Source of the DNA: an uncultured Clostridium sp.
Lineage (GTDB): Bacteria; Bacillota; Clostridia; TANB77; CAG-508
Direction of reading: 5' to 3'
NCBI GenBank assembly: GCA_947368535.1
Contig: CANBHY010000002.1
Location: forward strand, 95,536-159,535
Length of the DNA stretch: 64,000 bases
Within the stretch, counting starts at the first letter, position 1. Every line of letters starts with the position of its first letter. A program made the translations under genes and the position numbers. The notes under the pieces were generated by a model. It was not told the DNA's origin. It saw only the letters and a program-made list of their open reading frames with translations, and ran no database searches. Shown here piece by piece: positions 25,537-52,198 of the stretch.

Positions 25537-28500
25537 ATGTCAGAATTATTACATGTAGGATTAGATGTAGGTTCAACAACAGTAAAAATCGTTGTAATGA
25601 ATGATAAACAAGAAACAATATATACAAACTATACTAGACACTTTTCAGATACAAAAAATACAATATGTAATGTCTTAGAACAACTATCAAAAGATTATCC
25701 AGATGCTACATATACAATGGCTCTTACTGGTTCTGGAGCCATGTCAGCAGCTAATTTTTTAAAAATACCATTTATACAAGAAGTTATATCTTGTAAACGA
25801 GCTGTTGAAAAATATTTGCCAGAAACTGATATCGTTATTGAATTAGGTGGCGAAGACGCTAAAATCATATATTTTGATAAATTTATTGAGCAAAGAATGA
25901 ACGGAACTTGCGCTGGTGGAACAGGTGCATTTTTAGATCAAATGGCATCATTATTAAATACCGATACAGCAGGACTTAACGAATTAGCAAAAAGCTATAA
26001 AGTTATTTATCCAATTGCATCAAGATGCGGTGTATTTGCTAAAACTGATGTACAACCACTTTTAAACGAAGGTTCTAGAAAAGAAGATATTGCTGCATCA
26101 ATTTTTCAAGCAGTTGTTAATCAAACTATCAGTGGTTTAGCTTGTGGCAGACCAATTAGAGGAAAGGTTGCTTTTCTTGGAGGACCACTTAGTTACCTTC
26201 CAGAGCTTAGAAAACGTTTTATAGAAACACTTGAATTAAAAGATAATGAAATTCTTATTCCTGAAAATGCTCATCTTTTAGTAGCTAAAGGAGCAGCTCT
26301 AGATTCATTAAATTCACCAGAATTTTCAAATTCTCAATTAAAAGAAAAAATTAAAGATTTAAAAGTTGCTAAAGATACGACTACTAAGCCATTAGATCCT
26401 CTTTTTTCTAACGAAGAAGAATATAAAAAATTCAAAAAAAGACATGACAAAGCAAAAATTAAAACAAAATCCCTAGAAAAATATACTGGTGACTGTTTTG
26501 TTGGAATTGATGCTGGTTCAACTACTACAAAATTAGTATTAATAGATACTGATAAAAATTTACTTTATTCTGACTATAAAAGCAACGAAGGCAATCCACT
26601 AAATAGCGTTATAAAAATGCTAAAATCTATGTATGAAAAATTACCTGAAACTGCTAGAATTAGATTTGCTGGAGTAACTGGCTATGGTGAAAAATTAATT
26701 CAAACAGCTTTAAATGTTGATTTAAATGAAATTGAAACAATAGCTCATTACACAGCAGCAAAAGAATTTATGCCAAATGTTACTAGTATCATTGATATTG
26801 GTGGACAAGATATGAAATACATAAAAATGAAAGAAGACGTTATAGACAATATAATGCTAAATGAAGCATGTTCTTCTGGATGTGGATCTTTCATTGAAAC
26901 TTTTGCTAAAAGTTTAGGTTTAACCATCGAAGAATTCGTAAAATCTGCTATTGATTCAAAGGCTCCTGTAGACTTAGGCTCAAGATGTACAGTATTTATG
27001 AACTCAAAAATAAAGCAAGCACAAAAAGAAGGTTACAGTGTTGGCGATATTTCTGCTGGTCTTTCTTTTTCAGTAGTAAAAAATGCTATTCAAAAAGTTA
27101 TGAAAGTCCGTGATATGAAAACTCTTGGAAAACACATTGTTGTACAAGGTGGAACATTCTACAATGATGCTGTTTTAAGAAGTTTTGAAATATTAGTAGG
27201 ACAAAATGTAATTAGACCAAATATATCTGGATTAATGGGTGCATACGGTGTTGCACTACTTTCTAAAGAACAATTTGAAGCAAATTTAGATATGGAATAT
27301 ACTTCAACATTACTAAAAACAGAAGAATTAGATAATCTAAACATAAAAACAACACAAGTACGTTGTGGAAAATGTGAAAATAATTGTCTATTAACCATAA
27401 ATAAATTTAATGATAGTAAATCATTTATATCTGGAAATCGCTGTGAAAAAGGAAGCGGTGGAATTACTGAAAACAAAAATCTACCAAACATGTATAAATA
27501 TAAATTTGAAAGATTATTTGGATATGAGCCATTATCTGAAGAAAAAGCCTTCAGAGGAACAATTGGAATACCTAGAGTTCTAAATATGTATGAAGATTAT
27601 CCATTTTGGTTTACCTTCCTAACAAACTTAGGATTTAGAGTAATTCTTTCAGAAAAAAGTACTAGAAAAACATATGAAAAAGGTATGGAATCAATGCCTT
27701 CGGAATCAGTATGTTACCCTGCTAAATTAAGTCATGGACATATAATGGATCTTCTAGAAAAAGGTATTAAAACAATATTCTATCCTTGTATTCCTTATTC
27801 AAGAAAAGAATATCAAAAAGCAAATAACCATTATAATTGTCCAATCGTAATATCATATTCAGAAGTACTTAAAAACAACGTAGAAGACCTTAAATCTGAA
27901 AATATTAAATTCATTAATACATTTTTACCTTTCGAGATAAAAAACCTCGTAAAAGTCATTTTAGAGCGTGATGAATTTAAAGAATATAATTTTACTAAAA
28001 AAGAATTAACTGAAGCAGCAAAAAAAGCAGAAGAAGAGTATCAAAATTTCAAAAATGATGTCGATAAAAAAGGTCAAGAAATACTAGATTATATGAACAA
28101 AAATGATTTACGAGGAATTGTTCTTGCAGGAAGACCATATCACGTAGATCCAGAAGTAAATCATGGAATTGATACATTAATAACTAGTTTAGGTCTATGT
28201 GTTCTTTCAGAAGACAGTATATCTAAAAAAACTGAAGCAAAAAGACCTATCAGAGTAGTTGATCAATGGGTATATCATGCCAGACTATATGCTGCAGCAG
28301 AATTTACAGGTCAACATGATAACTTAGAACTAATACAATTAAACTCTTTTGGATGTGGCGTTGATGCTGTAACAACAGACCAAGTAGAAGAAATATTAAA
28401 AAGTTATGAAAATATGTACACTCTAATCAAAATAGATGAAGTTAATAACTTAGGAGCAGTCAGAATACGTATTCGTTCACTACTAGCTAGTATGAATAAG

Positions 28501-29820
28501 AAAATAAAAGAAAAGTCAGAAAGACAAACTTGTGAAGATTGTAAGTCCGTAGGAGATTATGAACTTCACCCTATAGAGTTTACTAAAGAGATGAAAAAAG
28601 ACTATACTATTTTAATTCCTCAAATGGCCCCAATCCATTTTGAATTAATAGAAACAGCCGTTAAATCTTGTGGATATAATGTAGAGTTATTAAGAAATTG
28701 CACACCAAATACAGTTGAAACAGGATTGAAATATGTAAATAATGATGCATGCTATCCTTCAATTTTAACTACGGGTCAAATGATTGAAGCCTTAGAGTCA
28801 GGTAAATATGATCCAAATAAAACAGCCTTAATAATGTCTCAAACTGGTGGAGGTTGTAGAGCAACTAACTATATTGGATTTATAAGAAAAGCTCTAAAAG
28901 ACGCCGGTTTCTCACAAGTACCAGTTATATCATTTAATGTGGTTGGTATGGAAAAAATGTCTGGATTTAAAATTACAATTGGCTTAGCAGAAAGACTACT
29001 AAAAAGTGTTACCTATGGTGATTTACTTCAAAAATTATTAATGAAAAATCGCGCATACGAAATAAACAAAGGTGAAACAGAAAAATTATATGAAAAATGG
29101 TTACAAAAATGTAAACAATTAGTTAAAAAATCAAATAGTAAACAATTTAAACAAAGCATTTATGATATTGTAGAAGATTTTGAAAAAATAGAATTAGACA
29201 CAAGTATACCAAAACCTAAAGTTGGTATAGTTGGAGAAGTCTTAATAAAATATCATCCTTTTGGAAACAACTTTGTAGCCAACGTTTTAGAAAAAGAAGG
29301 TGCTGAAGTAATATTACCAGACTTTATGGGATTTATAAAATTTATAGCAACTCATAAAATAACATTTAATAAACTATTAAAAATAGATAAAACAAAAGCA
29401 ACCATCTTTAGAGCAGCTATAAAATTAATAGATATTTTTGAAAAAGATTTAAAAATTGCCTTATCAAAATCTAATAAAAACTACCTGCCACCTTGCGATA
29501 TCTGGCATTTAGAAAATAAAGTAAAAGATATTCTATCTATTGGAAATCAAACTGGTGAAGGTTGGTTCCTAACAGCAGAAATGGTAGAATATATAGAACA
29601 TGACATTCCTAATATCGTTTGTGTTCAACCATTTGCATGTCTTCCTAACCATATTGTTGGAAAAGGTGTAATAAAAACTATTAGAGAAACTTATCCAAAT
29701 GCTAATATTACACCAGTTGATTATGATCCTGGAGCAAGCGAATCAAACCAAACTAATCGATTAAAATTATTAATGACAGTTGCAAAAGATAATTTAAAAA
29801 CAGAACAAAATAAAAAATAA
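25537..29820 (+). CDS. acyl-CoA dehydratase activase-related protein (two BadF/BadG/BcrA/BcrD-type ATPase domains fused to an HgdB-like domain)
   Basis: Two ASKHA-type ATPase N-termini (LHVGLDVGSTTVKIV and CFVGIDAGSTTTKLVL), two Cys-rich segments, and a long C-terminal dehydratase-subunit-like region. 1427 aa. GGAG RBS. Confidence 0.75.
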   Translation: MSELLHVGLDVGSTTVKIVVMNDKQETIYTNYTRHFSDTKNTICNVLEQLSKDYPDATYTMALTGSGAMSAANFLKIPFIQEVISCKRAVEKYLPETDIVIELGGEDAKIIYFDKFIEQRMNGTCAGGTGAFLDQMASLLNTDTAGLNELAKSYKVIYPIASRCGVFAKTDVQPLLNEGSRKEDIAASIFQAVVNQTISGLACGRPIRGKVAFLGGPLSYLPELRKRFIETLELKDNEILIPENAHLLVAKGAALDSLNSPEFSNSQLKEKIKDLKVAKDTTTKPLDPLFSNEEEYKKFKKRHDKAKIKTKSLEKYTGDCFVGIDAGSTTTKLVLIDTDKNLLYSDYKSNEGNPLNSVIKMLKSMYEKLPETARIRFAGVTGYGEKLIQTALNVDLNEIETIAHYTAAKEFMPNVTSIIDIGGQDMKYIKMKEDVIDNIMLNEACSSGCGSFIETFAKSLGLTIEEFVKSAIDSKAPVDLGSRCTVFMNSKIKQAQKEGYSVGDISAGLSFSVVKNAIQKVMKVRDMKTLGKHIVVQGGTFYNDAVLRSFEILVGQNVIRPNISGLMGAYGVALLSKEQFEANLDMEYTSTLLKTEELDNLNIKTTQVRCGKCENNCLLTINKFNDSKSFISGNRCEKGSGGITENKNLPNMYKYKFERLFGYEPLSEEKAFRGTIGIPRVLNMYEDYPFWFTFLTNLGFRVILSEKSTRKTYEKGMESMPSESVCYPAKLSHGHIMDLLEKGIKTIFYPCIPYSRKEYQKANNHYNCPIVISYSEVLKNNVEDLKSENIKFINTFLPFEIKNLVKVILERDEFKEYNFTKKELTEAAKKAEEEYQNFKNDVDKKGQEILDYMNKNDLRGIVLAGRPYHVDPEVNHGIDTLITSLGLCVLSEDSISKKTEAKRPIRVVDQWVYHARLYAAAEFTGQHDNLELIQLNSFGCGVDAVTTDQVEEILKSYENMYTLIKIDEVNNLGAVRIRIRSLLASMNKKIKEKSERQTCEDCKSVGDYELHPIEFTKEMKKDYTILIPQMAPIHFELIETAVKSCGYNVELLRNCTPNTVETGLKYVNNDACYPSILTTGQMIEALESGKYDPNKTALIMSQTGGGCRATNYIGFIRKALKDAGFSQVPVISFNVVGMEKMSGFKITIGLAERLLKSVTYGDLLQKLLMKNRAYEINKGETEKLYEKWLQKCKQLVKKSNSKQFKQSIYDIVEDFEKIELDTSIPKPKVGIVGEVLIKYHPFGNNFVANVLEKEGAEVILPDFMGFIKFIATHKITFNKLLKIDKTKATIFRAAIKLIDIFEKDLKIALSKSNKNYLPPCDIWHLENKVKDILSIGNQTGEGWFLTAEMVEYIEHDIPNIVCVQPFACLPNHIVGKGVIKTIRETYPNANITPVDYDPGASESNQTNRLKLLMTVAKDNLKTEQNKK

Positions 29821-29825
29821 AAAAA

Positions 29826-29856
29826 ATGGATAACTTAGGTTATCCATTTTTTTTCG
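29826..29856 (+). terminator. rho-independent terminator of the activase gene
   Basis: TGGATAAC ttag GTTATCCA followed by TTTTTTTT. Confidence 0.75.
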
Positions 29857-31039
29857 CATTCTAGATAAAAATTTTTGTTTTCAAAATTATAAATATAAAT
29901 TTTATATAAATATCTTTAAAACATCAAGCATTTTTATAGAAAATCCCCTAAATATTTAAATATTACATCCACTTTTTCTATCCTATTTAACTCTTAATTT
30001 TATATATATAACAATTTTATCTTCAATCATTATATCATCTTTGTCTTTCACGTACTGTTTTTGTTTTGTTACATAAAAAATTGGCATCTAAAAAAAATTT
30101 TTCATTTTTCTTTTCAACATAAGTATTATTTTTAAAAGTTTAAAATAATTAATTTTTATCAGTGACTTTATATTAAAAAAAATAAAAAGCAAAATGTTTT
30201 AAAAAAAATACCCTAAATAATTCAATTTAAGAACATTCTTTTAATCTTTAAAAGCTAGTAAACATGGGAAATTTGTGCTAAAAAGATTATTTCAAAAATA
30301 TTTAAAATGTTGCAAACAAAAATCCTTGCAAAAATCGAATATTATATTTTAATGATAATTAACATTAACCTTTTGACAAAAATCAATTAAAACGGAAAAT
30401 AAAAGGTCAAATAATTTTATCTCAAAAAAATTTATGGACAACTCATCAAATCATAAAAATAGTGTAGCTTATATTTTTTTATCCTCTAAAATTTTTTCTC
30501 TATCATTTTTTATTAGTAATTATTTTCTTCAAAATTGCTTTTACTCTAAAAAATTTAATAAAAATAGCAATTATTACATAAAAAATATAAAATAATTATT
30601 ATAAAAATAATTAAATAATAAAAAATAATAATTATTCTTACTTTTTCGCATAAAAATACGATTTTTAAAGCATTTATTACAGTTAAATTCGAACATCTAT
30701 CAATATCAAATTTTCACTCTTTTAAAAACAAATTTCAGTAAAAAATAATTTTTTTCCTTAAATAGCAAAAAAAATTTTTTTCTCGATCAAAAATCCGAAA
30801 TTTTTTTAGTCAATATGATTTTCCCATATATCTCATCTAAATTACTAATTTAAAAAAAGCTATTATTCTAATCATTCATTTTAAAATTTATAAAATCTCA
30901 TCAAAAATATAAAAATATCACCATATACAAAATAGAAAAACTAAAATAATGCTTAATAAAATATAATCGCTATATTATAGGAAATAAGCAAACTAGCAGA
31001 TTTTATATAATTATGGATATGCTTCAAAAATAATATTAA

Positions 31040-31054
31040 TTGCCAAAAAAGTAG
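31040..31054 (-). repeat. 15-nt motif copy (reverse complement CTACTTTTTTGGCAA)
   Basis: Read directly from the sequence: TTGCCAAAAAAGTAG. Confidence 0.6.
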
Positions 31055-32458
31055 TTGTGCTCCTTTCTCTACATTCAGCATAGAAATGACAATTTAAAAT
31101 AGATAAATAAGTCATCTACTTTTTTAGAAATCTTGTTATTAAAATGAAATGACAAATCAAAAATGCACATTTTATAAAAATTTTATTGCTCTTATAAAAC
31201 AAATAGCATATTTTTATTTTTTAAAATAAAAACTCTACTTTTCATGAATTTTAAATTACAATAAAATAATATTTATAAAAAACGTATGTTTGTTTTTGAA
31301 TATTTTTTAAAAATATAGCCTTAAATTCTTCATTTATGTTATGTATACTTATTATTTTTTAAAAAATATCTAAAAATTCAACCTTAGTTATACCAAGCAT
31401 TTCAAATTTTATATACTTTAATATTCTTTCATCTACATTTATATTTACATAATTCTTAATAATATCAAATTACATCAATTTTTTTGATTACCCGATCTTC
31501 TCTATCATATACATATATTAAGTCAAAATATATTTTAAAAAAGACTAAAAATTAAAATTTTTATTTTTCTCTATGCATTTTTAAAAAATTTTAATTTTTA
31601 GACATACTTACTATTTTTTTAAATTATCCTACAAATTTAAAAATATTATAAAAAAGATAATTCTTAAAAAAATCACGTCAAAATTATCCATTTTTTAAAT
31701 TTATTCATTTTTATAATATTCAATCAAATATAGGATTTACAAGCTGTATACGTTTTTTATATAAATGTAATAATGAACTTTTCAAAATTGTTTGCAAAAA
31801 ATAAAATGAAAATCAGAGAAATATTTTTAGTTATTTTTGAGTCAATCAATAATAAAATTTTTTAATTAATTGGCAATTATTTTTATTTAAAATACATACC
31901 TATGACAAAAATAACTTAAAATATAATCCAATTAAAAAATACTTTAACTTTTTACCTTATTTTTAATTTTTATATCTATTTATTCAAAAATACTAAATAT
32001 TACACTAATATAGCATAATATTCAATTAATAATTTATTTATTTATTTTTTTAATGTAAACTTACTAAAAAAAGCTGCTTTTTTTGGTAAAAATCTATAAA
32101 ATTCATATATAGTATTACACTAAATATGATAATTTTTAAAAATTTTTCTAAAAATATACAAATAACACTACTCATTAATATATAAACCTACATTAAATTT
32201 TTTATATACCAAAACAATATATTTTTTAGTCATACGTTAATCAATCCTCTTTTTATGCTTCAAAAAATATTTTTTAATATTTTTTTCTCGTTTTCATTTT
32301 TAAAAATGCAAAATACATATTTTATTTATAAAAAAAAGTTTTAAAAAAATTATGCTTTTTTTCACTTTTAATGTCCAACTTCAATTCATTAAATATGCGG
32401 AAATAAAGATAATTCAAAAAACAGTATATTTTTATTATATATATTTTTTTTAATTTTA

Positions 32459-32473
32459 TTGTCAAAAAAGAAG
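32459..32473 (-). repeat. 15-nt motif copy (reverse complement CTTCTTTTTTGACAA)
   Basis: TTGTCAAAAAAGAAG. Confidence 0.6.
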
Positions 32474-34053
32474 TTTCAAATTATAACTGAATTAAAACTT
32501 TAATAGACAAAAAAAGAAGCATCTCATTTCAGTTACAAAACTAATTTCTATTCTTATTAAAGTAAATGACAAATAAAAACTGTAAAAAAGCAGTAATATT
32601 TTTTAATATATCTTTTTATCATTTTAAGAATGAAAATCGAAATTTGAAGCATAATTTAAAAATTACAAATTTTTTTCCAAAAAATAAATATAAAAAAATA
32701 AAATTTATTTTTTTATATTTATTTTTATTAAAATCTATTTTCCTCATTTTTGCTCTATTTTTTTATTTTTGAAAAATAATATCTTTAAGCTATCTATTAT
32801 TTTTAATTTGTTTCGCTTACCGCTCTAAGAGATAGTTAGCTAATCTTCAATTTTTAATCTCTCATGCAAATATATTTTTTAGACTAATTGCCAATATTTC
32901 CTTAAAATACTCTTTTTATAAAATATTACACTCTATTTTGACCAATTTATTTTCTTTTTATTATATAAAGATTTATAAAAATTTATAAAAATTTATTTAT
33001 ACAAAATCACCAATTTTTATAAACTAATTATTATTATTTAGGCAAAATATATTTTTTATCAATTTTTATTCTTTATTCTATAAATTTTATATATTTATAA
33101 ATTTGATAAAAATTTTTTATAATTCTTTACATAAAAATAATAATTTAAATTTTAATAAATCAAAGGAAAAAAAGATCAAAAATTAATTATTTTAAATTTT
33201 TTTAAGCTTAGGGTAAAACCGCAAAATCTTCGGAATATCAACCAAAAGAGCTATTTAATATATTTGTAAAAATTCTCCAAAAAAAATTCTTTGCAAAAAA
33301 ATAAAAATAAAAATAAAGCTAAAAAATATAAAACATAGTGACAATTAATTTATATTCCTCTCATATAAGATGTCAAACATTTTTATAAATTATAATTAAT
33401 GTAGACAAAGTATTTATATTTATTTATTAATAAAATCATCTTAGCTAAAAATTTTAACCCTATTTCATTTTTATAATTCAGATCATATAATTTCATATCT
33501 AACATAAATTTAATGGTAATAAAATGAAATATTACAAAAAAAAACTATTAAAATTATATTTTCAATTTAATTTGAATTAAAATATATACAAAAAGTCAAA
33601 AAATGATATTTTCAAAAAAATATAAAAAATAAAATTAATTAAATATTACAAAAAAAATATTATTTTTAAATAAATATTACCATTTTTTTAGTATCAAAAA
33701 GATGTTTAAATATACTACTTAAAAATTTATAAATTATATACAAATCATCACCTATTTTATGTAACCTAAAATTAATATTATTAGCAAAACATTTTAATAA
33801 ATTTTTATTTAATTTTTTTGTGTCCAAATAATCAACACAAATTTTTAAATATAGTTTTAAAAATTTTAAAAATAACTTTTTTTAATATTACAATTAGATT
33901 TAAAAAATGTACACATTTAAAAAAAATTTATTGAAAGACAAAAAATAGTAAAAATCAGTAATATTATTTTTTTTTGTTTTCTGTGAAAGTTGGGATATAA
34001 GTGATAAAGCCGTTTTAATAAATAAAATGAAAAATTTACTTTATTTTATAGCT

Positions 34054-34068
34054 TGTCAAAAAAGGAGA
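34054..34068 (-). repeat. 15-nt motif copy (reverse complement CTCCTTTTTTGACAA)
   Basis: TTGTCAAAAAAGGAG. Confidence 0.6.
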
Positions 34069-35129
34069 TTACTAATATAAGAAAAATGTATACTAATTGG
34101 ACAAAAAAACATTTAAAAATTTAAAAGAAAATATATTAATTAAAATAATTATTCAATTGAACAGACAAAATCTTTCTAAAAAAAGATTAAATATTCCCCA
34201 AAATGCTTTTCAGTATCGAATATATGTTCTCCACTCTTTAAAGTTAAATAAAATAGTAGTTTTATTTAACTTTAAATCAAAAAAAATTAATAATTCTAAT
34301 GTTACAATACACAGTTTTTTAAAAAATATTTTTTTCTATTTTTTTAATTATTTATCTATTTTTTTTAATTTTTTTTAATTATTTTTAATTATTTTTAATT
34401 ATTTAATTTATTATTATAAATAATTATTAATTTATAATAAAATATCTAATAATTATTTATTTAAATATAAAAAAAATCATAGCTAGATATCCTAAATAAA
34501 TTTTTTAAACTATATGCATGAAACGCATGTGAAAATTTTTAGCCCTTATTTTCGTTTTTAATCAATTTTATTAAAAAAAAGTACCAATAATATTAATATT
34601 ATTAATAGATATTTACGTATTATAATGAAAAATTGATAAAAAAAAGAACCCAAATCATAAATTAATTGGATTCTACAATAAAATAAAGCTCATTTATGTG
34701 TAAATACATAAATCATCTCTCATAATTATCAATACTTTAATTATATTTTATAAATTAACTGTATAACAATTGCTTATTAAAATATAATTATGTAAAAATA
34801 ATTATTGATTAATAATCATTTTTTAAACTATGAAAAATAATTAAATAATTAAAATAAAATATTATTGATTAATTTAATAAATATTTAACATTTAATTCTA
34901 TAAAAATTAAATCATATTTATTAAATTTTTATAGAATTATTCTAAAATTATTAGTCAATAATAATGTTTTATTTGTATCCATTTTCCTGTTTCAACACAC
35001 TATACATATTTCACATTTTTTGTCTATATAATATAAACTTATGCAAAAAGTATTGTTTTTTAAGAAAATTTTATATGAATTTGATCATTTTTTTGTCTGA
35101 TATTAAAATTTTTTTATTAATTATTATCT

Positions 35130-35144
35130 CTACTTTTTTGACAA
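35130..35144 (+). repeat. 15-nt motif copy CTACTTTTTTGACAA
   Basis: Exact. Preceded 38 nt upstream by TTTTTTTGTCTGA. Confidence 0.65.
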
Positions 35145-36139
35145 ATATTAAAAGTTCAGCTTTGTGATTATTATCTATATTTATTAATATATCTGCATTA
35201 TATAATATTCGTACAAATTTATTGTTATAGATTTTTAAATTTAAAACTACATTTTCTTTTAATTATTTTCCACTATTTTATAAAATTTCCTAAAAATGAA
35301 TTTTTTTTCTTATAATCTTATATAAATTTGTATTCAAAAAACAATATTTTTTATTATCATCATTTAGTATTAATAACTTAGTAAATAATTGTATTTTTTT
35401 TACAAAAATTATAATAAATTATCCACAGATAATATCAAACAAGTTTTCTCTTATCAAAAATATTTTTTCTAATTATTTCAAATATATTTTTATTTTTTTA
35501 TATTTTTTATTAATTATTTTTAATTTATTTTTATTTTTTATTTATTTATTTTTATTTATTTATTTTTATTTATTTATTCCATGCACAAATTTATATATTT
35601 TTTACTTCAAAAATTAAAACCCTGGTTCCAAATTAATTCCAATTTATATATATTAATCTTTCTAAAATTTTTTTACATTATATCTCTTTTTATAGTCCGG
35701 ATAAAAAATAAAATTCCAAATTTAAATATTATTTTTTTCATACCTCTCTCTTACTATAGTATCACATACAAATTTTAATTCATATATTACTAATCATTTT
35801 AAATATTTTAATCTCTCAATTTATATATTTTTAAATTAATTATTTATATTTTTTCAATAATTATTAAAAAAATAATTAAAAATAATAAAAAAATAAAAAT
35901 AATTATTTTATTTATGAAAATTTTTCGTAATATTAAATTTTATATTATCAAAATATGTTTTTATTGATTTTATTGATCAGATCTATAAATTTTAAAATTA
36001 TGTACTAAATTATTATTTTATATAGTTTTTTTGTCTAGTTGGCAGCTGAATAAACATTTTGAGCATACAATTAATCATTTAATGTCAAAAAATGCTGTTT
36101 TTTTGTCTAGCTACGAAATAATTTTAATATTTCACAATT

Positions 36140-36154
36140 CTACTTTTTTGACAA
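36140..36154 (+). repeat. 15-nt motif copy CTACTTTTTTGACAA
   Basis: Exact. Preceded by TTTTTTTGTCTAG at 36095 and 36026, and by an inverted TGTCAAAAAAT at 36074. Confidence 0.65.
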
Positions 36155-37083
36155 AAGTTTTTACTGTTTTTTTATTATTGATGCATGTATTCATTGATAT
36201 ATAGATGTTTGACGTCATATATGTTTAAAATAGATTTTGTTTTTTGTAAAATTTTCAAATTTTCCTTCCTAATATATTTTATATTAAAAAATTTTTTTCA
36301 CTTTTATAGCTTTTAATCCTAAAAAAAAGAAAATTTTTTGAAAATTCCTTCCAAAAAATTCAATTTCATATTTTCACAAATTTCTTTACTTTCGCCATTA
36401 AAAAAACTATTATTCTAACCTTTAAGAATAATCAAATAATTAATAAAAGTATTACAAAAATAAAAAGATATTTTTACTAATTATTTTTATTTTTTTATTA
36501 TTTTTCTAAAATAAATTAATTAATTCTATTTTTTTATTTAATTTTTTTATTTAATTAAAATATATTTTCACTCATTTAATAAATTGCACTTTGATTTAAT
36601 ACCTTTTAAAAATTTTTTTATAAATAAGTTTCATAATTATAGAAATAGTAGATCAAGTTGAACTATACTTTATCAATATTTATATTTTTCTATATATTTT
36701 TCCATTTCTTTAAAACATTGAACTTATTTTTATTATAATATTTTTTATATAATTATAAAATTAAACTTATATAATAAAATATTTAATATTATTTTTCCAT
36801 AATTAATTAAAATATTATTTAAAAATAAAATAATAAAATAAAATTATTAATCTTTTATTTTATATTTATATAATATTTATTTATTATTTATGATACTGTA
36901 ATTTTCTCACTTCTTTTCAATAAAAATACACTATTTATTATCTATAACATTTCGGTTTAAAAAACTAGTATTTTTGTCTTTTAAATTATATATTGTTCTC
37001 ATTGTAACTTTTTTATATTATATTTCAATAAAAATATAATATTTTCTTGTCTTATATTTATTTTTTTTAACCATATTTGTTAT

Positions 37084-37098
37084 CTACTTTTTTGACAA
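37084..37098 (+). repeat. 15-nt motif copy CTACTTTTTTGACAA
   Basis: Exact. Confidence 0.65.
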
Positions 37099-38099
37099 TT
37101 TTTATTCACATCACATTAAGTGTTCACCATATTTCCTTTGAAATTTGTGAGTTTCATGAATTTTATCTTAGAAAATTTATATATTTTTCAAATTCTATTA
37201 TTATATTCATCATATTTTAATTTATAAAAATTCTTAAAAACTTAATATTCCGTTTTAAAAAACAATTTTTAGAAAATTTACTAAGAATTTTTTAATAAAA
37301 TTTTACTATCTAAATTTCTCCAATTTTAAGGCCTTTTTTATATCAAAATTTATAACAATATAAATTATCTTTTTACTATATTAATATTTCATTTTTTTAA
37401 ATTTAATATTTTTATTTTTCATATTTTTTTAATATTTTTCTATTTATTATTTATATTTATTCTTTATTTTATAATTAATTTAAATTAATTATTTATTTAT
37501 TAAAAATTGTATATACTTTTGTATACATAATTATTTTTAAGATCAAAAATTGATCTTTTTTTTAATATTTTCTTATATGAAAATTTATAAAAGAAGATTT
37601 ATTTATACTTTTTTTATAATATTGGAATAAAACTTCTAAAATTTTAAAAATATCTTTTTATTTTTAAACTAAATTTTTATAAAAAAAGCAAAATTATATT
37701 TAGATTTTTAATAATACAAAATAAATTTTACTATTAATAAAAAAAATATCTAAAAAAATAATAATAAATTATAAAAAATTAAAATATTTTTTGTAATAAA
37801 TTTTAATTTTTATTTTCATCAATAAATTAAATTTTGAATATATTTTTATAATATTATTGGAATAAATTTCATAATTTTATGCAACTTTGAATACTCAATA
37901 ACATAACTTTTTTTACTTTAGAAGTTTTCTTCTGGCTAAATTTTCATTCACACTTTTTCACAATTCTTTCTACAATACTTCAGAGTATTTTGTCTTATGT
38001 ATATTTATTCTTCTATAACAGAACTTATATAATTCAATTTTTTATATTTTTTAGTTCATTTTTTGTCTAATATAAAATATTTTTGTTTATTTCTTAAAT

Positions 38100-38114
38100 C
38101 TACTTTTTTGACAA
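38100..38114 (+). repeat. 15-nt motif copy CTACTTTTTTGACAA
   Basis: Exact. Preceded 36 nt upstream by TTTTTTGTCTAA. A possible -10 TATTAT lies 17 nt after the embedded TTGACA. Confidence 0.65.
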
Positions 38115-39273
38115 ATATTTTTTAATATCCTATTATATATATTCGATATAAGTCCCATATTTAAAGTATTTTGAACTATTACTATACTTTTTAATTACTA
38201 CCTTTTCTTAATTTTTATTAAATAATTTATAATTTTTAAAATTATAAATTATACACTTAATCAAATTCGATTTATTTTTAAAGAAATTTAAAACACATTA
38301 TTCAAATTTTCTAAAAACTTTCTATCTTTTATTAAAAATCTCATATGTATATGTTTTCAAAACACATTCGTACATATGTTCTTAATATTTTTTAGTCAAA
38401 TTGATATGTTATAGTATATTCTTATTAATTACTTTTTTTAATTAAATATAACAACATATTTTGATATTTATTTTAATACATAAAAACTAATAGATTATAT
38501 TTTTATTTTTCTATATTTTATTATTTATTTATTATTATTTTTTTTATATTTATCTTTATTTTAAATATATTTTTTATTTTTTAAAAAAATATATTTTTTT
38601 ATTCCCTCAACTAATATAAAATTTTTCATTTTTTCCATATTATTCTTTATTTTAAATTTATAAATCAAAACTTTAAAATTTTTTCCTAAAATTTTTAAAT
38701 AAAGATACTTATTTCTTACAAATTTAATTTGATATTTTCTAATCTTTTTTCATAATCAGCAATTTTAAAAAAATAATTAAAGAATTTTTTTTTATTTTTT
38801 TAATAAATCCATTTTTTTATATTAACATTCAATTCATTTTTTATAAAATATAAATAATTATTCCTAATTTTTAATATATTTTTTTGTTTTTTTATTTTTA
38901 TATCAATTTATAAAATATTTATTAATTTAAATACTTTTTAAAAAATTAATTACTACGCATTTATTTTCTTAGTTTCAAATTTTGTACTACTCATTCTTCT
39001 TAAATTTGACCAGTTATATATATATGAATTTATATAAGATTTACTTGTCATTCTGTCAATATTTCTCTAACTATAATTAATACTTTATTTATGTTAGTCG
39101 ACAAATACCAAACATATTTTCTTAACTACTTCTATAAAATTTATTTACCCTCATTCTATTTTTATACTTATTTCCCTTTTAAATATATTACTTTTTCTTA
39201 CTTTAGCCATTTTATTAGTTACTTACTCTAATTTTCTTGACTAAAAAATTTATATTTTTTAATTTTCTCTAAA

Positions 39274-39288
39274 CTACTTTTTTGTCAA
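39274..39288 (+). repeat. 15-nt motif copy CTACTTTTTTGTCAA (variant)
   Basis: One mismatch. Preceded by TTCTTGACTAAAAAA. Confidence 0.55.
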
Positions 39289-41080
39289 ACATTTTTTAAA
39301 TAGTATCTTTAATAATATTCTATAACTCCCTATTTATAAAGATTTCATAAGTATACTCAATATAATCATGATCCATTTTTTCTATTTTAAGCATGCTTTT
39401 ACATTAATTTTAAAATTATAAATTATAAAAACTCTCTTTTTAAAAAAAATCTACTAATACAACTGCAAAGAAATTTCTAATCTAACTTTAAACATATTTC
39501 TAATCTCAAATTTTTTTTTGTCGTTTTTTCATTTATTCGAATTAAAAACGCAACCTAGTCAAATTGATAATAATTTATTCTTATCTTATTCATTTTTTAT
39601 TTCATTACTGCGAACAAATGTATTCGCATACATCTTTGATTAAAAATTTTTTTCTTCAGATAAAACTATTCTCTTTTATAAATATTCTGTATAGTTTTTA
39701 TTTAAAAACATTTTTTATTATTTATTTTATTTTTTGATATTTATTTCCTTATTTAAGTTTTTCAACGCATTATTTTCGTTTTTTTTTTGATTTTTATAAA
39801 AATTTCAAGTAATTATATTCCAAATTTCTATCAGTAAATAGTCTAAAATAATAATTTATTATATTTTTTACTGTTTATTTTATTATTTGATTATAAAAAC
39901 ATTTATAAATAAAAAATAAAAATATTTATTTTTTATTTTTTTAAATGTAATATTAAATGTATTTCATTTATTATTTATATTTTATATTAATAAATATCAT
40001 ATTGATCTATTTAATATGTTTTTTTATATTAATAAAAAAACATTGTCTAAAACATTAAAAATATCTTTTTTTAATGCTCATTTTTTATATTTTATTGTCT
40101 ATTATCTTAATATTTTTCCATTTTTTTCTTTCTACTTATTTGTCAATGAATTTTTGCCATTAAAAAACGCATTTAATATAAATCCTCTAATATCAACACT
40201 TTAATACTTATTTATATATTTTTTCTTAATATTTTTATACCAAACTTATTTATTCATTTAATCTTTCATTAATTTTATTAAAAATTTTCTTTTTTAAGCC
40301 TCTAAAAAAATATAAAAAAATTTACTAATCTACTTCTCAAATTAATCAATTTTTTTTATGCTATTTTTCACATACTATTATTTAATTATTCTTTTTTGAT
40401 ATTATAATTTCTAATTTTCATGTAATATTTTCCATATCTTTTATCTTTATTTTTTAATTAAATTTTATAATTACAAAATAAATTTCATTTATTTATTTTA
40501 TTTTTTTATATTTTTTAAATATTGATATATCAGCAAAAAATTAATTTAAAATTATTTATTAATTATTTTTTCGATATTTTTTTAATTAATTAATATTATT
40601 AAAATATTTACTTTTCAATATGTAATATACCTCTTATTTTCCTTTATTTAAAAGCATTCTACGATGTAACAATTAACATTTAAAAATTTATTTTAATTTT
40701 ATTTTTTTAATTATTCATGAAATTATTAAAAAATATTTTTTAATAATTTTTAAAATTAACTTTTCTATTTTTAAAATTCACATTTTATACACAAAAAAAT
40801 ATAAAATAATTTTAAATAAAAAATTTATTTTATATTTTAATATTATTTCCTATTTTTTTTATATTTAGTTTTTTAATATCAATTTACGATAAATATATAT
40901 CATTTTCCAAGCCTCTAAAATCGTCATATTTTGATTTTCAATATAAACAAATAATATATGTCATATTAGTATATATTTATATTATTTTTGGATTCTCGTA
41001 GCTTCTATATTATTTTTTAAAATTAATACATAATAAACAAAATATATAAAAAAAAAGATAGTACATTCTTGTACTATCTT

Positions 41081-41172
41081 TGGCGGAGATTGAGGGATTT
41101 GAACCCTCGCGGCCCTAAACGAACCCTAACAGTTTAGCAAACTGTCCCCTTCAGCCACTTGGGTAAATCTCC
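41081..41172 (-). tRNA. tRNA-Ser (anticodon GCU)
   Basis: The reverse complement reads GGAGATTTACCCAAGTGGCTGAAGGGGACAGTTTGCTAAACTGTTAGGG...GGGTTCAAATCCCTCAATCTCCGCCA. Anticodon loop is TT-GCT-AA. Long variable arm, T-loop GGTTCAAATCC, encoded CCA. Confidence 0.85.
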
Positions 41173-41211
41173 GTATAATTATAAAGCTAGATAGTATTTC
41201 ATATCTAGCAT

Positions 41212-41303
<92 letters not shown>

Positions 41304-41356: not shown

Positions 41357-41836
41357 TTATATTTTTTTCAACTCTTTTGCTTTATTTAAGGCACTTATCT
41401 CTTCCTCTGATAAAGTTTGTAAAGAATTACCATTCTCTATTCTTTTAGCATATACATTACTAGAAGATCTGCCATATACAGAGTTTATAATAAACCCATT
41501 ATCTTTATTATCTAATAAAGCAATTGCAAAACTCAACTTACTTCCAACATCATCAAAAGCATCATATTTTACTATTCCAATATTTTGAAAGCATTCATTT
41601 AACTGTTTTTCAAGGCTTTTGTAATTTGATTTTATAATTTTGTTTTCCTCATTTACATTATTTACCATTTTTTCTATTTCTTTAAACGTATTCTCTATAT
41701 TTTCGTCAGAATTAAATTTGGATATAAATTCAGAATAATGTTTTTCTATATTTTTTAGCTTAAAAATAAATAATAATATAATAGCAGTTAACACTACATT
41801 AACTGCTATTGATCCTATTAAAATAGCACTTTCCAT
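41357..41836 (-). CDS. DUF4446-like membrane-anchored protein (conserved neighbour of parB in Clostridia)
   Basis: N-terminal TM helix and a coiled-coil segment. C-terminal region has a VKYDAFDDVGSKLSFAIALLD...NGFIINSV pattern. Confidence 0.5.
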   Translation of the reverse strand: MESAILIGSIAVNVVLTAIILLFIFKLKNIEKHYSEFISKFNSDENIENTFKEIEKMVNNVNEENKIIKSNYKSLEKQLNECFQNIGIVKYDAFDDVGSKLSFAIALLDNKDNGFIINSVYGRSSSNVYAKRIENGNSLQTLSEEEISALNKAKELKKI

Positions 41837-43488: not shown

Positions 43489-43639
43489 AATAATCCCTCC
43501 AATCTTTCTTTATTATAATATAAAAATTATAATCCTCTGTCAATAAAATTTATAATTATTTTACCCATATTTTTATTTTTTTAATATTTTTATCCTCAGA
43601 TTTTTAAATTTTTTAAAATATTTATACACAAAAATGTGA

Positions 43640-43700
43640 AAATGATAAAAAATTATCCACAGATTATCAACATTTTATCAACAGGTTATCTGTGGAACAT
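43640..43700. promoter_or_regulatory. DnaA-box cluster between parA and rsmG
   Basis: Perfect TTATCCACA at 43653-43661. Two TTATCAACA boxes (one mismatch each) at 43664 and 43675. TTATCTGTGGA at 43686. Confidence 0.55.
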
Positions 43701-43714
43701 TATTTTTTTCATTT

Positions 43715-44434
43715 TCATTTTAATGGTTCTTTAATAGGTTTTCCTTGTTTTCTTGGGTATATTTGTTCGGTATGTTTTTCCTTTAAAATAACTATTATAC
43801 TGCGTCCATTCCCATTTAATTCATATTGTATTTTCTTCTCTATTTTGCCTCCTAAAATCCTAATTGCATTTTTCGATTCTTCTAATTCTTTATCCACATC
43901 TGGTCCTTTTAAACATATACATTTTCCACCTTTTTTTAAAAATGGTAACATATATTCCACTAAAGTTGTCATATTTGAAACAGCTCTAGAAACTACAATG
44001 TCATATTTTTCTCTATATTTTTCATCATGTGCCAAATCTTCTGCTCTACTATGAATAGCAATAATATTATTTAAATTTAATTTTTCAATTGTGTCATTCA
44101 TAAAATTTACTTTTTTATTAACCGCATCCAATAAAGTAATATCCATGTCATTGTTAACAATTTTTATAGGAATTCCTGGGAATCCTGCTCCCGAACCTAA
44201 ATCTAACATTTTATTTCCTACAATTTCATCTTTTATAACTATTGAATCAATAAAATGTTTTATAACAATGTCTTTTTTCTCTTTTATTGCAGTTAAATTT
44301 ATTTTTTCATTCCATTCTATCAAATTATTCATATATAAATAAAATAATTCAATTTGTTTTTCTGAAAGATTTATATTATTTTTCTTTGCTTCATTTTTAA
44401 TAAAATCTTTAATATCTTCCATATTACTCTCCAT
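43715..44434 (-). CDS. rsmG: 16S rRNA (guanine527-N7)-methyltransferase
   Basis: SAM-binding [12 protein letters not shown] motif. Position immediately downstream of mnmG. Confidence 0.85.
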
Positions 44435-50500: not shown

Positions 50501-51856
50501 TTGTTAGATAAAAACGAACTTTTAAATCAAGCAAAAGAGCTTTTAAAAAATGAGATGACAAATATATCATATGCAACATGGATTAAAACTTTAGAAATAG
50601 GAAACATATATGATAATAAAATTGAACTAATAACAACAAATGCAATGCAAACAGATGCAATTAAATCTAGATATTGTGATTTAATTGTTAATACTTTCAA
50701 TTTTCTAACAAATAAATCTTGGCAATTAGAAATTATCGATTCATCTGATAGTTCTAATATAACAAGTGCTCAAGAAGCTTTAGATAATTCATTTGATTCT
50801 TTAACTTCTAGTCCAGAATATAGTAAAACTTCCTTAAATCCAAAATATACTTTTGATACCTTTGTAGTAGGAAATAATAACCGATTTGCTCATGCCGCAG
50901 CATTAGCAGTTTCTGAAGCACCATCATCTATGTATAATCCATTATTTATATATGGGGGAGTTGGTTTAGGAAAAACTCACTTAATGCAAGCAATCGGAAA
51001 TGAAATACTAAAAAGGGATTCTTCTAAAAAGGTATTATACGTAACATCCGAAGCATTTACAAATGAATTAGTAAATGCCATTAAAGATGCTAATTATAAA
51101 AACGAATTATTTAGAAATAAATATAGAAATATAGATATTTTATTAATTGATGATATACAATTTTTTGCTGGAAAAAATACAGCTCAAGAAGAATTTTTCC
51201 ATACTTTTAATACATTACATCAAAATGGTAAACAAATAATTCTTTCTAGTGATAAACCACCAAGAGATATTGCTTTATTAGAAGATAGATTAAAATCTCG
51301 TTTTGAATGGGGATTAATAGCAGATATATCAATGCCAGATTATGAAATGAGATTAGCAATATTAAGAAAGAAAACTCAAATGGAAGGCATTTTAATAGAT
51401 GACGATATTCTTTCATTAATTGCCACAAAAATAGATTCAAATATTAGAGAATTAGAAGGAGTATTAAACAAAATACTAGCCTATACATCATTAACTCATA
51501 GTCCAATAACAATCGAAGTAGTAGAAAAAGCAATAAATGATGTTACTTTACAAAAAGAAAATATTATTTCTGCAGACTATATTCAAGATGTAGTAGCAAA
51601 TTATTTTAAAATAGATAAAAAAGACATGGTATCAGCAAAAAAATCAAATGACATCGCATATCCAAGACAAATAGCTATGTACCTTTGTAGAACAGTGGGA
51701 CAAATGTCTTTCCCTAGAATAGGAAACGACTTTGGGGGAAGAGATCATACAACGGTAATGCATGCTTTCAAAAAAATAGAAAAAGAAATAAAAGAAAACA
51801 CAAATACAAAATTAATTGTGGAAAGTGTTAAAACAATAATTACAAACAAAAAATAA
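50501..51856 (+). CDS. dnaA: chromosomal replication initiator protein DnaA
   Basis: AAA+ Walker A (GGVGLGKTHL) and Walker B (LLIDDIQF). C-terminal DNA-binding domain (YPRQIAMYLCR...TVGQ...IGNDFGGRDHTTVMHA). TTG start 11 nt after an AGGAGG RBS. Confidence 0.9.
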   Translation: MLDKNELLNQAKELLKNEMTNISYATWIKTLEIGNIYDNKIELITTNAMQTDAIKSRYCDLIVNTFNFLTNKSWQLEIIDSSDSSNITSAQEALDNSFDSLTSSPEYSKTSLNPKYTFDTFVVGNNNRFAHAAALAVSEAPSSMYNPLFIYGGVGLGKTHLMQAIGNEILKRDSSKKVLYVTSEAFTNELVNAIKDANYKNELFRNKYRNIDILLIDDIQFFAGKNTAQEEFFHTFNTLHQNGKQIILSSDKPPRDIALLEDRLKSRFEWGLIADISMPDYEMRLAILRKKTQMEGILIDDDILSLIATKIDSNIRELEGVLNKILAYTSLTHSPITIEVVEKAINDVTLQKENIISADYIQDVVANYFKIDKKDMVSAKKSNDIAYPRQIAMYLCRTVGQMSFPRIGNDFGGRDHTTVMHAFKKIEKEIKENTNTKLIVESVKTIITNKK

Positions 51857-52198
51857 ATTTGATAAAACTTATATATCAATTTTATCGAATTTTTTATAAA
51901 AAAAGGTGTTTTACGAACAAAAGTATTATCAAAAAAATTCAATTTGTTCCTACGGAAGAGCAAGAAAAGATATCAACAGATTAGTGTTTAAAACGTGTTA
52001 AATTTCTGTTTATAATCAACATATGCACATAAAAAGTTTAATAATGTGGATAAATTTATTTTTTATTCACAGGTTTATAAACATCAAATTTTCTGCGGAT
52101 ATAAACAATAAACAGACTTTTCCACAGAATCCACACCACCTAATACTAATACTACTATATATATTTATATTATTTTATAAAAAAAGGAGTTTGAAAAA
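51857..52198. promoter_or_regulatory. oriC: dnaA-dnaN intergenic DnaA-box cluster plus AT-rich DNA-unwinding element
   Basis: TGTGGATAA (perfect box, reverse orientation) at 52045-52053. TTATTCACA at 52063. TTTTCCACA at 52117. AATCCACAC at 52128. Then a pure A/T tract (CTATATATATTTATATTATTTTATAAAAAAA) immediately before dnaN. Confidence 0.7.

What the first reader, a model, noticed from the sequence alone, without database searches (positions are those of the whole stretch)
36020..36160. Dense cluster of four motif copies in 140 bp, in alternating orientation
TTTTTTTGTCTAG is at 36026. An inverted TGTCAAAAAAT is at 36074-36084. TTTTTTTGTCTAG is again at 36095. CTACTTTTTTGACAA is at 36140. A relatively GC-richer spacer (TTGGCAGCTGAATAAACATTTTGAGCATAC) lies between them. 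This is the highest local density of the motif family. It would be the natural nucleation site if the array binds a protein.
Basis: seen in the sequence. Interest (0 to 1): 0.5.

Follow-up and report, generated by a model that had tools for sequence, protein, structure and literature searches.

The report
Repeated motif module in AT-rich array
The four-motif cluster is real, but it is one of at least seven copies of a conserved DNA module that recurs about every 1 kb in an 11-kb gene-free, extremely AT-rich repeat array beside the replication origin of an uncultured gut Clostridium; I found no description of such a feature, and its function, most likely protein binding, is unknown.

Summary
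The motifs exist and are far beyond chance.

The interval 36026-36154 is one copy of a module with TTGTC sites at -72 and 0 and a palindromic TTGACAA at +45. It recurs once per ~1-kb unit of an ORF-free array (29.86-41.05 kb, 14% GC). The array lies between two tRNA-Ser genes and a convergent CoA-activase gene, 9-20 kb from dnaA and beside parAB.

Module orientation flips at ~34.5 kb. The same spacer holds a 1.5-11 kb array, down to 4-8% GC, with 0.8-1.3 kb units in many related gut Clostridia MAGs. Some relatives lack it.

The array bulk varies within species at the synonymous rate (6.3% against 5.7%). Modules vary at 2.1% (P=2e-5), and this was replicated in a second species (P=8e-4). Only the ~60-bp A-B module is conserved between species.

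There is no conserved -10, no stable fold, no Rfam hit, no parS or DnaA-box array, and no phage or plasmid homology.

Best reading: spaced binding sites for an unknown DNA-binding protein. This cluster is not special. Its fourth copy and its GC-richer spacer are not conserved between species.

The parts
29855..41053 (.). ORF-free, ultra-AT tandem array of about 10 degenerate ~1-kb units. It lies between the CoA-activase gene and two tRNA-Ser genes, which are convergent.
   Evidence: No ORF of 120 aa or more; smaller ORFs are low-complexity. GC is 12-18% per kb, against 25-32% in genes. Repeat family D1 has ~1-kb spacing. The lag spectrum peaks at ~1000 nt.
36026..36038 (+). Site A' of unit u36 (TTTTTTTGTCTAG). 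The TTGTC core lies 72 nt upstream of site A.
   Evidence: TTGWC is present at -72 to -74 in 6 of 12 modules and at -62 to -64 in 3. A' shows no polymorphism dip.
36039..36068 (+). GC-richer spacer (37% GC) between A' and the extra copy.
   Evidence: Only its first ~15 nt resemble the sister-species orthologue. The interval as a whole is at background identity.
36083..36093 (-). Extra fourth copy, TGTCAAAAAAT (reverse complement ATTTTTTGACA). It is specific to this unit and species.
   Evidence: It is invariant in the four strains but is not kept in the L005 orthologue.
36098..36110 (+). Site A of unit u36 (TTTTTTTGTCTAG). It is the 5' arm of the constrained module.
   Evidence: No SNP falls in any A core in the four strains.
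36140..36154 (+). Site B of unit u36 (CTACTTTTTTGACAA). It contains the palindromic heptamer TTGACAA, and its G is 45 nt from the G of site A.
   Evidence: No SNP falls in any B core.
35083..35161 (+). Module of unit u35.
   Evidence: nhmmer E=5.8e-9; alignment A1.
37038..37115 (+). Module of unit u37.
   Evidence: nhmmer E=3.1e-8.
38054..38126 (+). Module of unit u38.
   Evidence: nhmmer E=3.1e-9.
39229..39304 (+). Module of unit u39. Its central bases are swapped: A is TTGAC and B is TTGTCAA.
   Evidence: nhmmer E=2e-7.
34045..34113 (-). Module in inverted orientation (left arm).
   Evidence: nhmmer E=1.7e-10; inverted repeat I10.
32449..32521 (-). Module in inverted orientation (left arm).
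   Evidence: nhmmer E=2.8e-9; inverted repeat I14.
31040..31054 (-). Degenerate B-like site (TTGCCAAAAAAGTAG) in the left arm.
   Evidence: Read. It is below the nhmmer threshold.
34114..35016 (.). Zone where module orientation and AT skew switch.
   Evidence: All core hits left of it are '-'. All to the right are '+' except 36084. AT skew changes sign here.
35460..35578 (+). Example of the T-rich microsatellite-like tract found once per unit. Others are at 36471-36556, 37372-37503 and 38498-38582.
   Evidence: TRF. These are the most polymorphic parts of a unit, with 16-22% variable columns.
29819..29854 (.). Symmetric terminator-like hairpin (A8...T8) ending the CoA-activase gene at the left border of the array.
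41054..41081 (-). Terminator-like hairpin after tRNA-Ser(GCT) at the right border of the array.
41081..41303 (-). Two tRNA-Ser genes (GCT, TGA) transcribed towards the array.

Best explanation
The interval 36026-36154 is one copy of a three-site DNA module. In the parB-proximal arm it is the fourth copy counting from parB. The module has TTGTC at -72, T7GTCTA at 0 and CTNCT6GACAA at +45. It recurs once per ~1-kb unit of an origin-proximal, gene-free tandem array.

Shown: the array bulk drifts at the neutral rate and has a composition close to the neutral expectation. Only the ~60-bp A-B module is held by selection, within two species and between them. Array position and unit length (~0.8-1.3 kb) are shared across a clade of uncultured gut Clostridia.

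Inferred: each module is a bipartite recognition platform for a sequence-specific DNA-binding protein that has not been identified. The array would then display about 7-10 regularly spaced, oriented binding platforms in easily melted DNA beside parAB and oriC. It would serve chromosome organisation, anchoring or factor titration rather than gene expression.

It is not a unique nucleation point.
For: Motif excess and layout:
- T5G[AT]C has 21 hits against 1.8 expected; the B 12-mer has 7 against 0.02.
- G-to-G spacing between A and B is 45-47 nt in the 11 modules of two species, and 44-45 in the module of a third.

Within-species constraint:
- Module SNP density is 10/469 = 2.1%, against 6.3% in the rest of the array (P=2e-5).
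- No SNP falls in any A or B core, about 196 nt in all.
- The dip covers only offsets 0 to +49 from the G of site A.
- In a second species, using five strains, modules have 2/260 variable columns against 4.3% (P=8e-4).

Neutral bulk:
- Array polymorphism of 6.3% matches fourfold-site polymorphism of 5.7% in flanking genes. Codon positions 1+2 are at 0.6%.
- GC at fourfold sites is 6.8%.

Between species (window against L005):
- Module identity is 0.68-0.84. Flanks are at 0.52-0.72, which equals the random null of 0.61 +/- 0.06.
- Unit-specific module interiors are kept in two of the four positional orthologue pairs: 26/33 for u36 and 24/33 for u37. That argues for vertical constraint rather than homogenisation.

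Clade level:
- The spacer ParB-DUF4446-tRNA-Ser x2-[array]-activase holds an array of 1.5-11 kb in many relatives, and no array in some.
- Unit periods are 0.8-1.3 kb in nine arrays.

No module occurs in the 53 kb of the window outside the array.
Against: - No binding protein is identified and no binding was tested.
- The motifs do not meet any known operator consensus that I could check (0A box, parS, DnaA box).
- More distant relatives keep the array but not this module. L018 instead has a recurring TTATTTCCCWG island. Any binding factor or site must therefore have turned over, or the modules are not the conserved essence of the array.
- Constraint is moderate: 2.1% against 0.6% at codon positions 1+2.
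- Polymorphism rests on 4 and 5 metagenome-derived genomes.
- A 45-bp gap between half-sites is unusual for a simple operator.
- Bulk neutrality fits a dispensable array equally well.
Confidence: 0.4

Rival explanations
1. The array is a neutral or selfish satellite with no cellular function. It persists in a tolerant tail-to-tail spacer through unequal crossing-over. The modules are kept because they promote the array's own duplication or recombination, or merely through linkage and low sample size.
For: - The bulk evolves at the synonymous rate, and its composition is near the fourfold-site expectation.
- Array length ranges from 0 to 11 kb among relatives, and some relatives lack it.
- Units are homogenised within species in L014, L016, L215 and L018, and L018 has a higher-order repeat. 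This indicates active unequal exchange.
- Module sequence is not conserved across the whole clade.
Against: - In the window species the units have diverged to background, yet the modules are retained. Two positional orthologue pairs also keep unit-specific interiors across species. That is the opposite of homogenisation.
- The polymorphism dip was replicated in two species.
- These are small genomes; the one complete relative is 1.8 Mb. Bacteria usually delete useless DNA, yet the array sits in the same spacer across relatives whose ParB is 66-97% identical to the window's.
Confidence: 0.2
2. The modules punctuate transcription units. B (TTGACA) is a sigma-A -35 element with a T-rich upstream region. 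The T-runs of A' and A terminate the preceding unit. Each ~1-kb unit would then yield a U-rich non-coding RNA transcribed outward from the array centre.
For: - A perfect TTGACA is present in 10 of 11 modules.
- The best promoter-like hit in the region is at B of u38: TTGACA-17-TATTAT.
- Unit length is gene-like.
- Module orientation flips together with strand composition.
- Terminators at both borders would make internal promoters necessary for any transcription.
Against: - There is no conserved -10. Only about 2 of 7 window modules have an acceptable hexamer at 16-18 nt.
- The 75 nt after B are among the more variable parts of a unit, at ~10%.
- Promoter-like sites in the region number 151 against 152.5 expected.
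- No terminator-like hairpins occur inside the array.
- Module folds are not more stable than shuffles; mean z is -0.3 and -0.4.
- There is no Rfam match even at E<=1.
Confidence: 0.15
3. The modules are clusters of near-consensus Spo0A boxes (TGTCTAA, TGTCAAA). This is a specific sub-case of protein binding. The array would titrate or recruit Spo0A~P near oriC in a spore former.
For: - All sites share TGTC, with G2 and C4 of the 0A core TGTCGAA, and have A/T flanks.
- PMC3485338 states that the core is TGTCGAA, that contacts are at G2, C4 and G5, that the flanks are A/T, and that many real targets carry only degenerate boxes.
- A sporulation-type Germane-domain gene lies nearby.
- The location is origin-proximal.
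Against: - G5 is A or T in every site, and a G5A change lowered affinity about 10-fold in vitro.
- No regulated gene lies downstream.
- The 15-nt conservation of B (CTNCTTTTTTGACAA) exceeds a 7-bp box.
- The resemblance is a 4-5 nt match with a large look-elsewhere effect.
- Presence of spo0A in this genome was not checked.
Confidence: 0.08
4. A and B pair with each other (TTGTC / GACAA) in single-stranded DNA or RNA. The selected feature would then be a hairpin or cruciform rather than a duplex binding site.
For: - A contains TTGTC and B contains GACAA, giving a 5-7 bp inverted repeat in all modules.
- In u39 both central bases are swapped (TTGAC / GTCAA), which keeps complementarity.
- Many MFE folds close with this stem.
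Against: - The stem is only 5-7 bp around a ~40-nt loop.
- Fold energies are not below shuffles; mean z is -0.3 and -0.4.
- There is only one compensatory event; the chance that the two rare variants fall in the same module is about 1/11.
- B is itself a palindrome, so its central base only sets orientation.
Confidence: 0.06

Closest known systems
Iterated centromere or partition-site repeats (plasmid sopC/parC-type iterons; chromosomal parS clusters bound by ParB). Comparison from general knowledge.
   Same: Multiple spaced copies of a short conserved DNA site in non-coding DNA. The sites lie next to parAB and near oriC and are oriented.
   Different: - Known arrays have periods of tens of bp, or are single 16-bp palindromes scattered over many kb. 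Here the period is ~1 kb, with neutral spacers.
- There is no parS-like sequence.
- The ParB helix-turn-helix looks canonical.
- Binding is untested.
Spo0A '0A boxes' (TGTCGAA), as described in PMC3485338.
   Same: A TGTC core with A/T flanks, several boxes clustered within ~130 bp, in a Firmicute that probably sporulates.
   Different: - Contact base G5 is missing in every copy.
- There is no downstream promoter or gene.
- The conserved B motif is 15 nt long.
- The sites recur with kb periodicity.
DnaA-box clusters (oriC, datA-like titration loci). Comparison from general knowledge.
   Same: An origin-proximal, non-coding cluster of repeated sites that could titrate a factor.
   Different: Only one perfect DnaA box lies in 11 kb (35419). 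The real DnaA-box clusters are at 43590-43898 and 52045-52126.
Integron cassette arrays with attC/VCR repeats. Comparison from general knowledge.
   Same: A conserved ~60-130-nt element recurs every ~0.5-1 kb in a long array, with variable sequence between the elements.
   Different: - The units carry no ORFs.
- No RYYYAAC/GTTRRRY core sites are visible in the aligned modules.
- Orientation flips inside the array.
- The spacers are low-complexity AT DNA.
Opposed Ter-site groups of replication fork traps (Tus/RTP systems). Comparison from general knowledge.
   Same: Two groups of oriented sites face each other, in the window species and in the L005 species.
   Different: - The array lies 9-20 kb from oriC, not at the terminus.
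- GC skew keeps its sign across and beyond the array, so forks pass through.
- Relatives such as L018 show a single strand polarity across the array.
AT-rich satellite or regional centromere DNA of eukaryotes. Analogy only, from general knowledge.
   Same: - A kb-scale array of tandem units.
- Extreme AT content; 4-8% GC in L018.
- Concerted evolution with higher-order repeats.
- Rapid sequence turnover with conserved position.
- The array breaks short-read assemblies.
   Different: This is a bacterial chromosome with a ParABS system. There is no evidence for any kinetochore-like function. The composition can be explained by mutation bias alone.

Membership tests
Spo0A 0A box | 7-bp core TGTCGAA with protein contacts at G2, C4 and G5 (PMC3485338). 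| tested here: not met
   G2 and C4 are present. Position 5 is T (sites A', A) or A (site B, reverse strand) in all 12 modules.
Spo0A 0A box | Located upstream of a regulated promoter or gene. | tested here: not met
   No gene lies within the array.
Spo0A 0A box | Bound by Spo0A~P or its DNA-binding domain. | not testable with these tools
   Needs EMSA or ChIP.
Sigma-70/sigma-A promoter | -35 hexamer TTGACA. | tested here: met
   B contains TTGACA in 10 of 11 modules.
Sigma-70/sigma-A promoter | -10 hexamer TATAAT-like, 16-18 nt downstream, and conserved. | tested here: not met
   Acceptable in about 2 of 7 window modules. The region after B shows ~10% polymorphism.
Intrinsic terminator | Stable G+C-containing hairpin followed by a T-run. 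| tested here: not met
   The only three terminator-like sites are at or beyond the array borders. Module folds have mean z of -0.3.
ParB-parS centromere | 16-bp palindrome TGTTNCACGTGAAACA. | tested here: not met
   No match with 3 or fewer mismatches in 64 kb. None in the arrays of close relatives.
DnaA-box cluster (oriC / titration locus) | Several TTATCCACA boxes. | tested here: not met
   One perfect box (35419) and two one-mismatch boxes in 11 kb. The clusters lie elsewhere.
Integron cassette array | An ORF in each cassette, and attC with inverted RYYYAAC/GTTRRRY cores. | tested here: not met
   No conserved ORF. The A and B cores differ from attC cores in the aligned modules. An integrase gene was not searched for beyond the window ORF list.
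CRISPR array | Direct repeats of 24-48 nt separated by unique spacers of 26-72 nt. | tested here: not met
   The period is ~1 kb and the spacers are low-complexity.
Described structured RNA family (Rfam 15) | Covariance-model match. | tested here: not met
   No hit at gathering score other than the tRNAs. No hit at E<=1 in 29800-41100.
Tandem type I toxin-antitoxin repeats (LDR-like) | A conserved small hydrophobic ORF with an antisense RNA in each unit. | tested here: not met
   No ORF is shared between units. Constraint is confined to the 60-bp module.
Replication fork trap (Ter sites) | Opposed oriented sites at the terminus, coinciding with a GC-skew switch. | tested here: not met
   Opposed orientation is present. 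The skew switch is at ~50 kb (dnaA), not at the array.
Phage- or plasmid-derived island at a tRNA gene | Homology to mobile-element DNA or genes. | tested here: not met
   No phage match, and one insignificant low-complexity plasmid match. No ORFs.

The most novel reading that the evidence does not exclude
The array is a bacterial 'regional' chromosome-architecture element. It would be a satellite-like series of ~1-kb units, each pairing a selected protein-binding module with a neutral ultra-AT spacer. It is kept beside parAB and oriC across a clade of uncultured gut Clostridia. It would act as an origin-domain anchor, centromere-like platform or factor sink, possibly during sporulation. This would be a kind of cis-element not described in bacteria.
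Probability: 0.2. Interest if true: 0.85.

Novelty: categorically new. Interest (0 to 1): 0.62.

Why it matters
Bacterial chromosomes are thought to hold almost no long non-coding DNA, and their known segregation and origin elements are short sites. Here a small genome carries 11 kb of gene-free tandem DNA at a fixed place next to oriC and parAB. Relatives carry up to about 7 kb there, at 4-8% GC.

Only one ~60-bp module per kilobase is under selection. If the modules bind a protein, this is a new class of chromosome-organising element. It would also be a tractable case of satellite-like concerted evolution in bacteria.

There is a practical consequence too. The array systematically breaks short-read MAG assemblies of this clade at the origin region.

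Tried and rejected
- Replication origin or DnaA titration locus: rejected. The DnaA boxes are elsewhere, and the skew switch is at dnaA.
- parS or ParB site: none found. The ParB helix-turn-helix is conserved with relatives that do have parS.
- Intrinsic DNA curvature: there is no consistent 10-11 bp A-tract phasing in any array.
- Structured RNA: no Rfam hit, and folds are no better than shuffles.
- Coding potential: there are no conserved ORFs. The RHH-like ORF in L026 is unique to that locus.
- Mobile-element origin: there is no phage or plasmid homology.
- Fork trap: rejected on GC skew.
- A clade-wide shared motif (CTTATTTCC, which resembles a Noc-site half): not enriched beyond the null except in L018, L215 and L218.
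That scan was wasted.
- Literature searches for TANB77/CAG-508, extremely AT-rich non-coding regions, satellite-like bacterial repeats and DUF4446 found no description of this feature.
- The placement of these MAGs in GTDB order TANB77 is from memory and was not verified.

Full report
**Observation.** I read 35400-36800 directly.
- TTTTTTTGTCTAG occurs exactly twice in the window, at 36026 and 36098. The expected count is 0.02.
- TGTCAAAAAAT is at 36083-36093, not 36074-36084.
- CTACTTTTTTGACAA is at 36140-36154.
- The 37%-GC spacer is at 36039-36068.
- Against a Markov null with the array's own composition, the core T5G[AT]C has 21 hits against 1.8 expected. Four hits in 140 nt never occurred in 1000 simulations.
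- The cluster is therefore real and non-random. It exceeds the next unit by only one hit (35017/35090/35135).
- 'Alternating orientation' does not describe it well.

**Context.**
- The window is a bacterial origin region. In order it holds dnaA (50501-51856), dnaN, recF, gyrB, and on the other side rpmH to parA and parB, DUF4446 (41357-41836) and two tRNA-Ser genes.
- GC skew switches at ~50 kb.
- An 11.2-kb stretch lies between the tRNAs and a convergent 1427-aa CoA-enzyme-activase gene (25537-29820).
- That stretch has no ORF of 120 aa or more, and per-kb GC of 12-18% against 25-32% in genes.
- Terminator-like hairpins sit at both borders.
- It contains no Rfam family even at E<=1.
- It has no parS, one lone perfect DnaA box and no phage or plasmid homology.

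**Anatomy.**
- Repeat finding shows a ~60-nt element, TTTTTTTGTCTA-N~32-TCTACTTTTTTGACAA. Forward copies are at 35089, 36099, 37043, 38059 and 39233. Inverted copies are at 34053-34113 and 32459-32518.
- Spacing between the forward copies is 0.94-1.17 kb.
- TTGWC sites fall at offsets -72 to -74 (or -62 to -64), 0 and +45 to +47 in 11 modules of two species. A module from a third species has the A-B pair at the same spacing, within 1 nt.
- All core hits left of 34.1 kb are on the minus strand. All hits right of 35.0 kb are on the plus strand, except the extra copy at 36084.
- AT skew flips at the same place.
- Each unit also has a T-rich microsatellite-like tract about 330-480 nt after the module.

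**Relatives.**
- The DUF4446 protein, with exactly this sequence, is indexed in 691 blocks of the public collection. Three contigs that extend into the array are the same species, and one more ends just past DUF4446.
- ParB homologues retrieved 80 loci from uncultured gut Clostridia MAGs.
- Many relatives whose ParB is 66-97% identical to the window's show the order ParB-DUF4446-tRNA-Ser x2-[AT-rich stretch]-activase.
- The AT-rich stretch in them ranges from 1.5 kb to more than 9 kb.
- It is 6.8 kb at 4-8% GC in a complete HiFi chromosome (L018, OZ006973.1), and 4-5 kb at 5-10% GC in L027 and L054.
- It is absent in L046 and L063.
- Many contigs, including ones of 250-340 kb, end 1-3 kb into it.
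- Arrays of nine species have unit periods of 0.8-1.3 kb although their sequences differ.
- L018 has a 1.84-kb higher-order repeat.
- The A-B module itself is found in the window species, the L005 species and L212. L215 has clusters of related TGTC motifs.
- L018 has a different recurring island, TTATTTCCCWG.

**Selection.** Among four genomes of the window species:

| Site class | SNP density |
|---|---|
| Array outside modules | 6.3% |
| Fourfold-degenerate sites of flanking genes | 5.7% |
| Modules | 2.1% (10/469) |
| Codon positions 1+2 | 0.6% |

- The module value differs from the rest of the array at P=2e-5.
- No SNP falls in any A or B core. By my arithmetic from these numbers, the probability of that over ~196 nt is about 3e-6.
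- Aggregated by offset, the dip spans only 0 to +49 from the G of site A. The 75 nt after B are at ~10%.
- In five genomes of the L005 species, modules have 2/260 variable columns against 4.3% in the array (P=8e-4).
- Between the two species the array does not align. The exception is the modules, with identity 0.68-0.84, while flanks match a random null of 0.61 +/- 0.06.
- Two of the four positional orthologue pairs keep unit-specific interiors: u36 against L005 15649 at 26/33, and u37 against 14845 at 24/33.
- The A'-A interval of u36 holds the GC-richer spacer and the extra copy. It is at background identity (0.62), and the TGTC of the extra copy is not kept.
- GC at fourfold sites is 6.8%. 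Extreme AT-richness is therefore the neutral expectation here and is not evidence of function.

**Mechanism.**
- The module is a selected duplex element of ~60 bp with two conserved arms at a fixed distance.
- It is not a promoter in any standard sense. The -35 is present, but no -10 is conserved and there is no constraint downstream.
- It is not a terminator or a stable hairpin.
- It is not a known operator. 0A boxes need G5, which is absent; parS and DnaA boxes are absent.
- I therefore favour an unidentified sequence-specific DNA-binding protein that recognises TTGTC/TTGACAA in a T-tract context, with confidence 0.4. That the array acts as a series of spaced binding platforms near the origin is inference.
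- Rivals, with confidences, are:
  - a functionless or selfish satellite (0.2);
  - promoter/terminator punctuation of non-coding RNAs (0.15);
  - a Spo0A-box array (0.08);
  - an A-B pairing structure (0.06), hinted at by the swapped central bases of u39.

**Verdict.**
- The finding is a true, non-random motif cluster, but it is an ordinary member of a larger and much more unusual feature.
- I found no described counterpart in Rfam, in phage or plasmid collections, or in the searchable literature.

Noticed in passing
window 56600-61230: A ~4.6-kb low-GC (15-23%) insertion lies between gyrB and gyrA. It encodes a HerA/TraG-like P-loop ATPase (57902-59491) and two ORFs with no Pfam match (59494-60486, 60477-61151). 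It may be a defence or mobile islet.
   Followed up: partly
window 43590-43898: A second DnaA-box cluster (six boxes with 1 mismatch or fewer in ~310 bp) lies between rsmG and parA. It is additional to the dnaA-dnaN cluster at 52045-52126.
   Followed up: no
window 1-64000; loci L001-L018: No parS-like site (3 mismatches or fewer) occurs anywhere in the 64-kb origin window, despite a canonical-looking parAB. No close match occurs in the loci of the nearest relatives either. More distant L080 and L084 have one-mismatch parS sites.
   Followed up: partly
L018 11650-18400: A complete HiFi chromosome of a relative has a 6.8-kb array at 4-8% GC, with 250-nt windows at 0-2% GC and strong A>T skew on the strand that carries parB. 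It has a 1.84-kb higher-order repeat and a recurring island, TTATTTCCCWG, about every 900 nt.
   Followed up: partly
window 39233-39296: Unit u39 has both central bases swapped relative to all other modules (A is TTGAC, B is TTGTCAA). This keeps A and B reverse-complementary. It may be a compensatory change, but it is a single case.
   Followed up: partly
L026 12901-13080: A 60-aa ORF that looks like a ribbon-helix-helix DNA-binding protein sits at the activase-side border of this relative's short array. It was found in no other locus.
   Followed up: partly
L063 16950-18250; L046, same place: Relatives that lack the array in the tRNA-Ser/activase spacer carry a 1.3-1.6 kb non-coding polypurine (A/G-rich) stretch about 5 kb further from the origin.
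   Followed up: no
L072 7600-9700: The short AT-rich stretch of this relative carries two perfect DnaA boxes (AAAGTTATCCACATT) about 870 nt apart, unlike all other arrays.
   Followed up: no
L215-L221, L006-L012: In human-gut relatives, even contigs of 250-340 kb end 1-3 kb into the array. The feature is a systematic break point of short-read assemblies and is probably under-represented in MAG catalogues.
   Followed up: partly
window 36206-36221: TGTTTGACGTCATATA, which contains the palindrome TGACGTCA, lies 50 nt downstream of the flagged cluster. It is the GC-richest short word nearby. It lies in a region that varies between strains.
   Followed up: no
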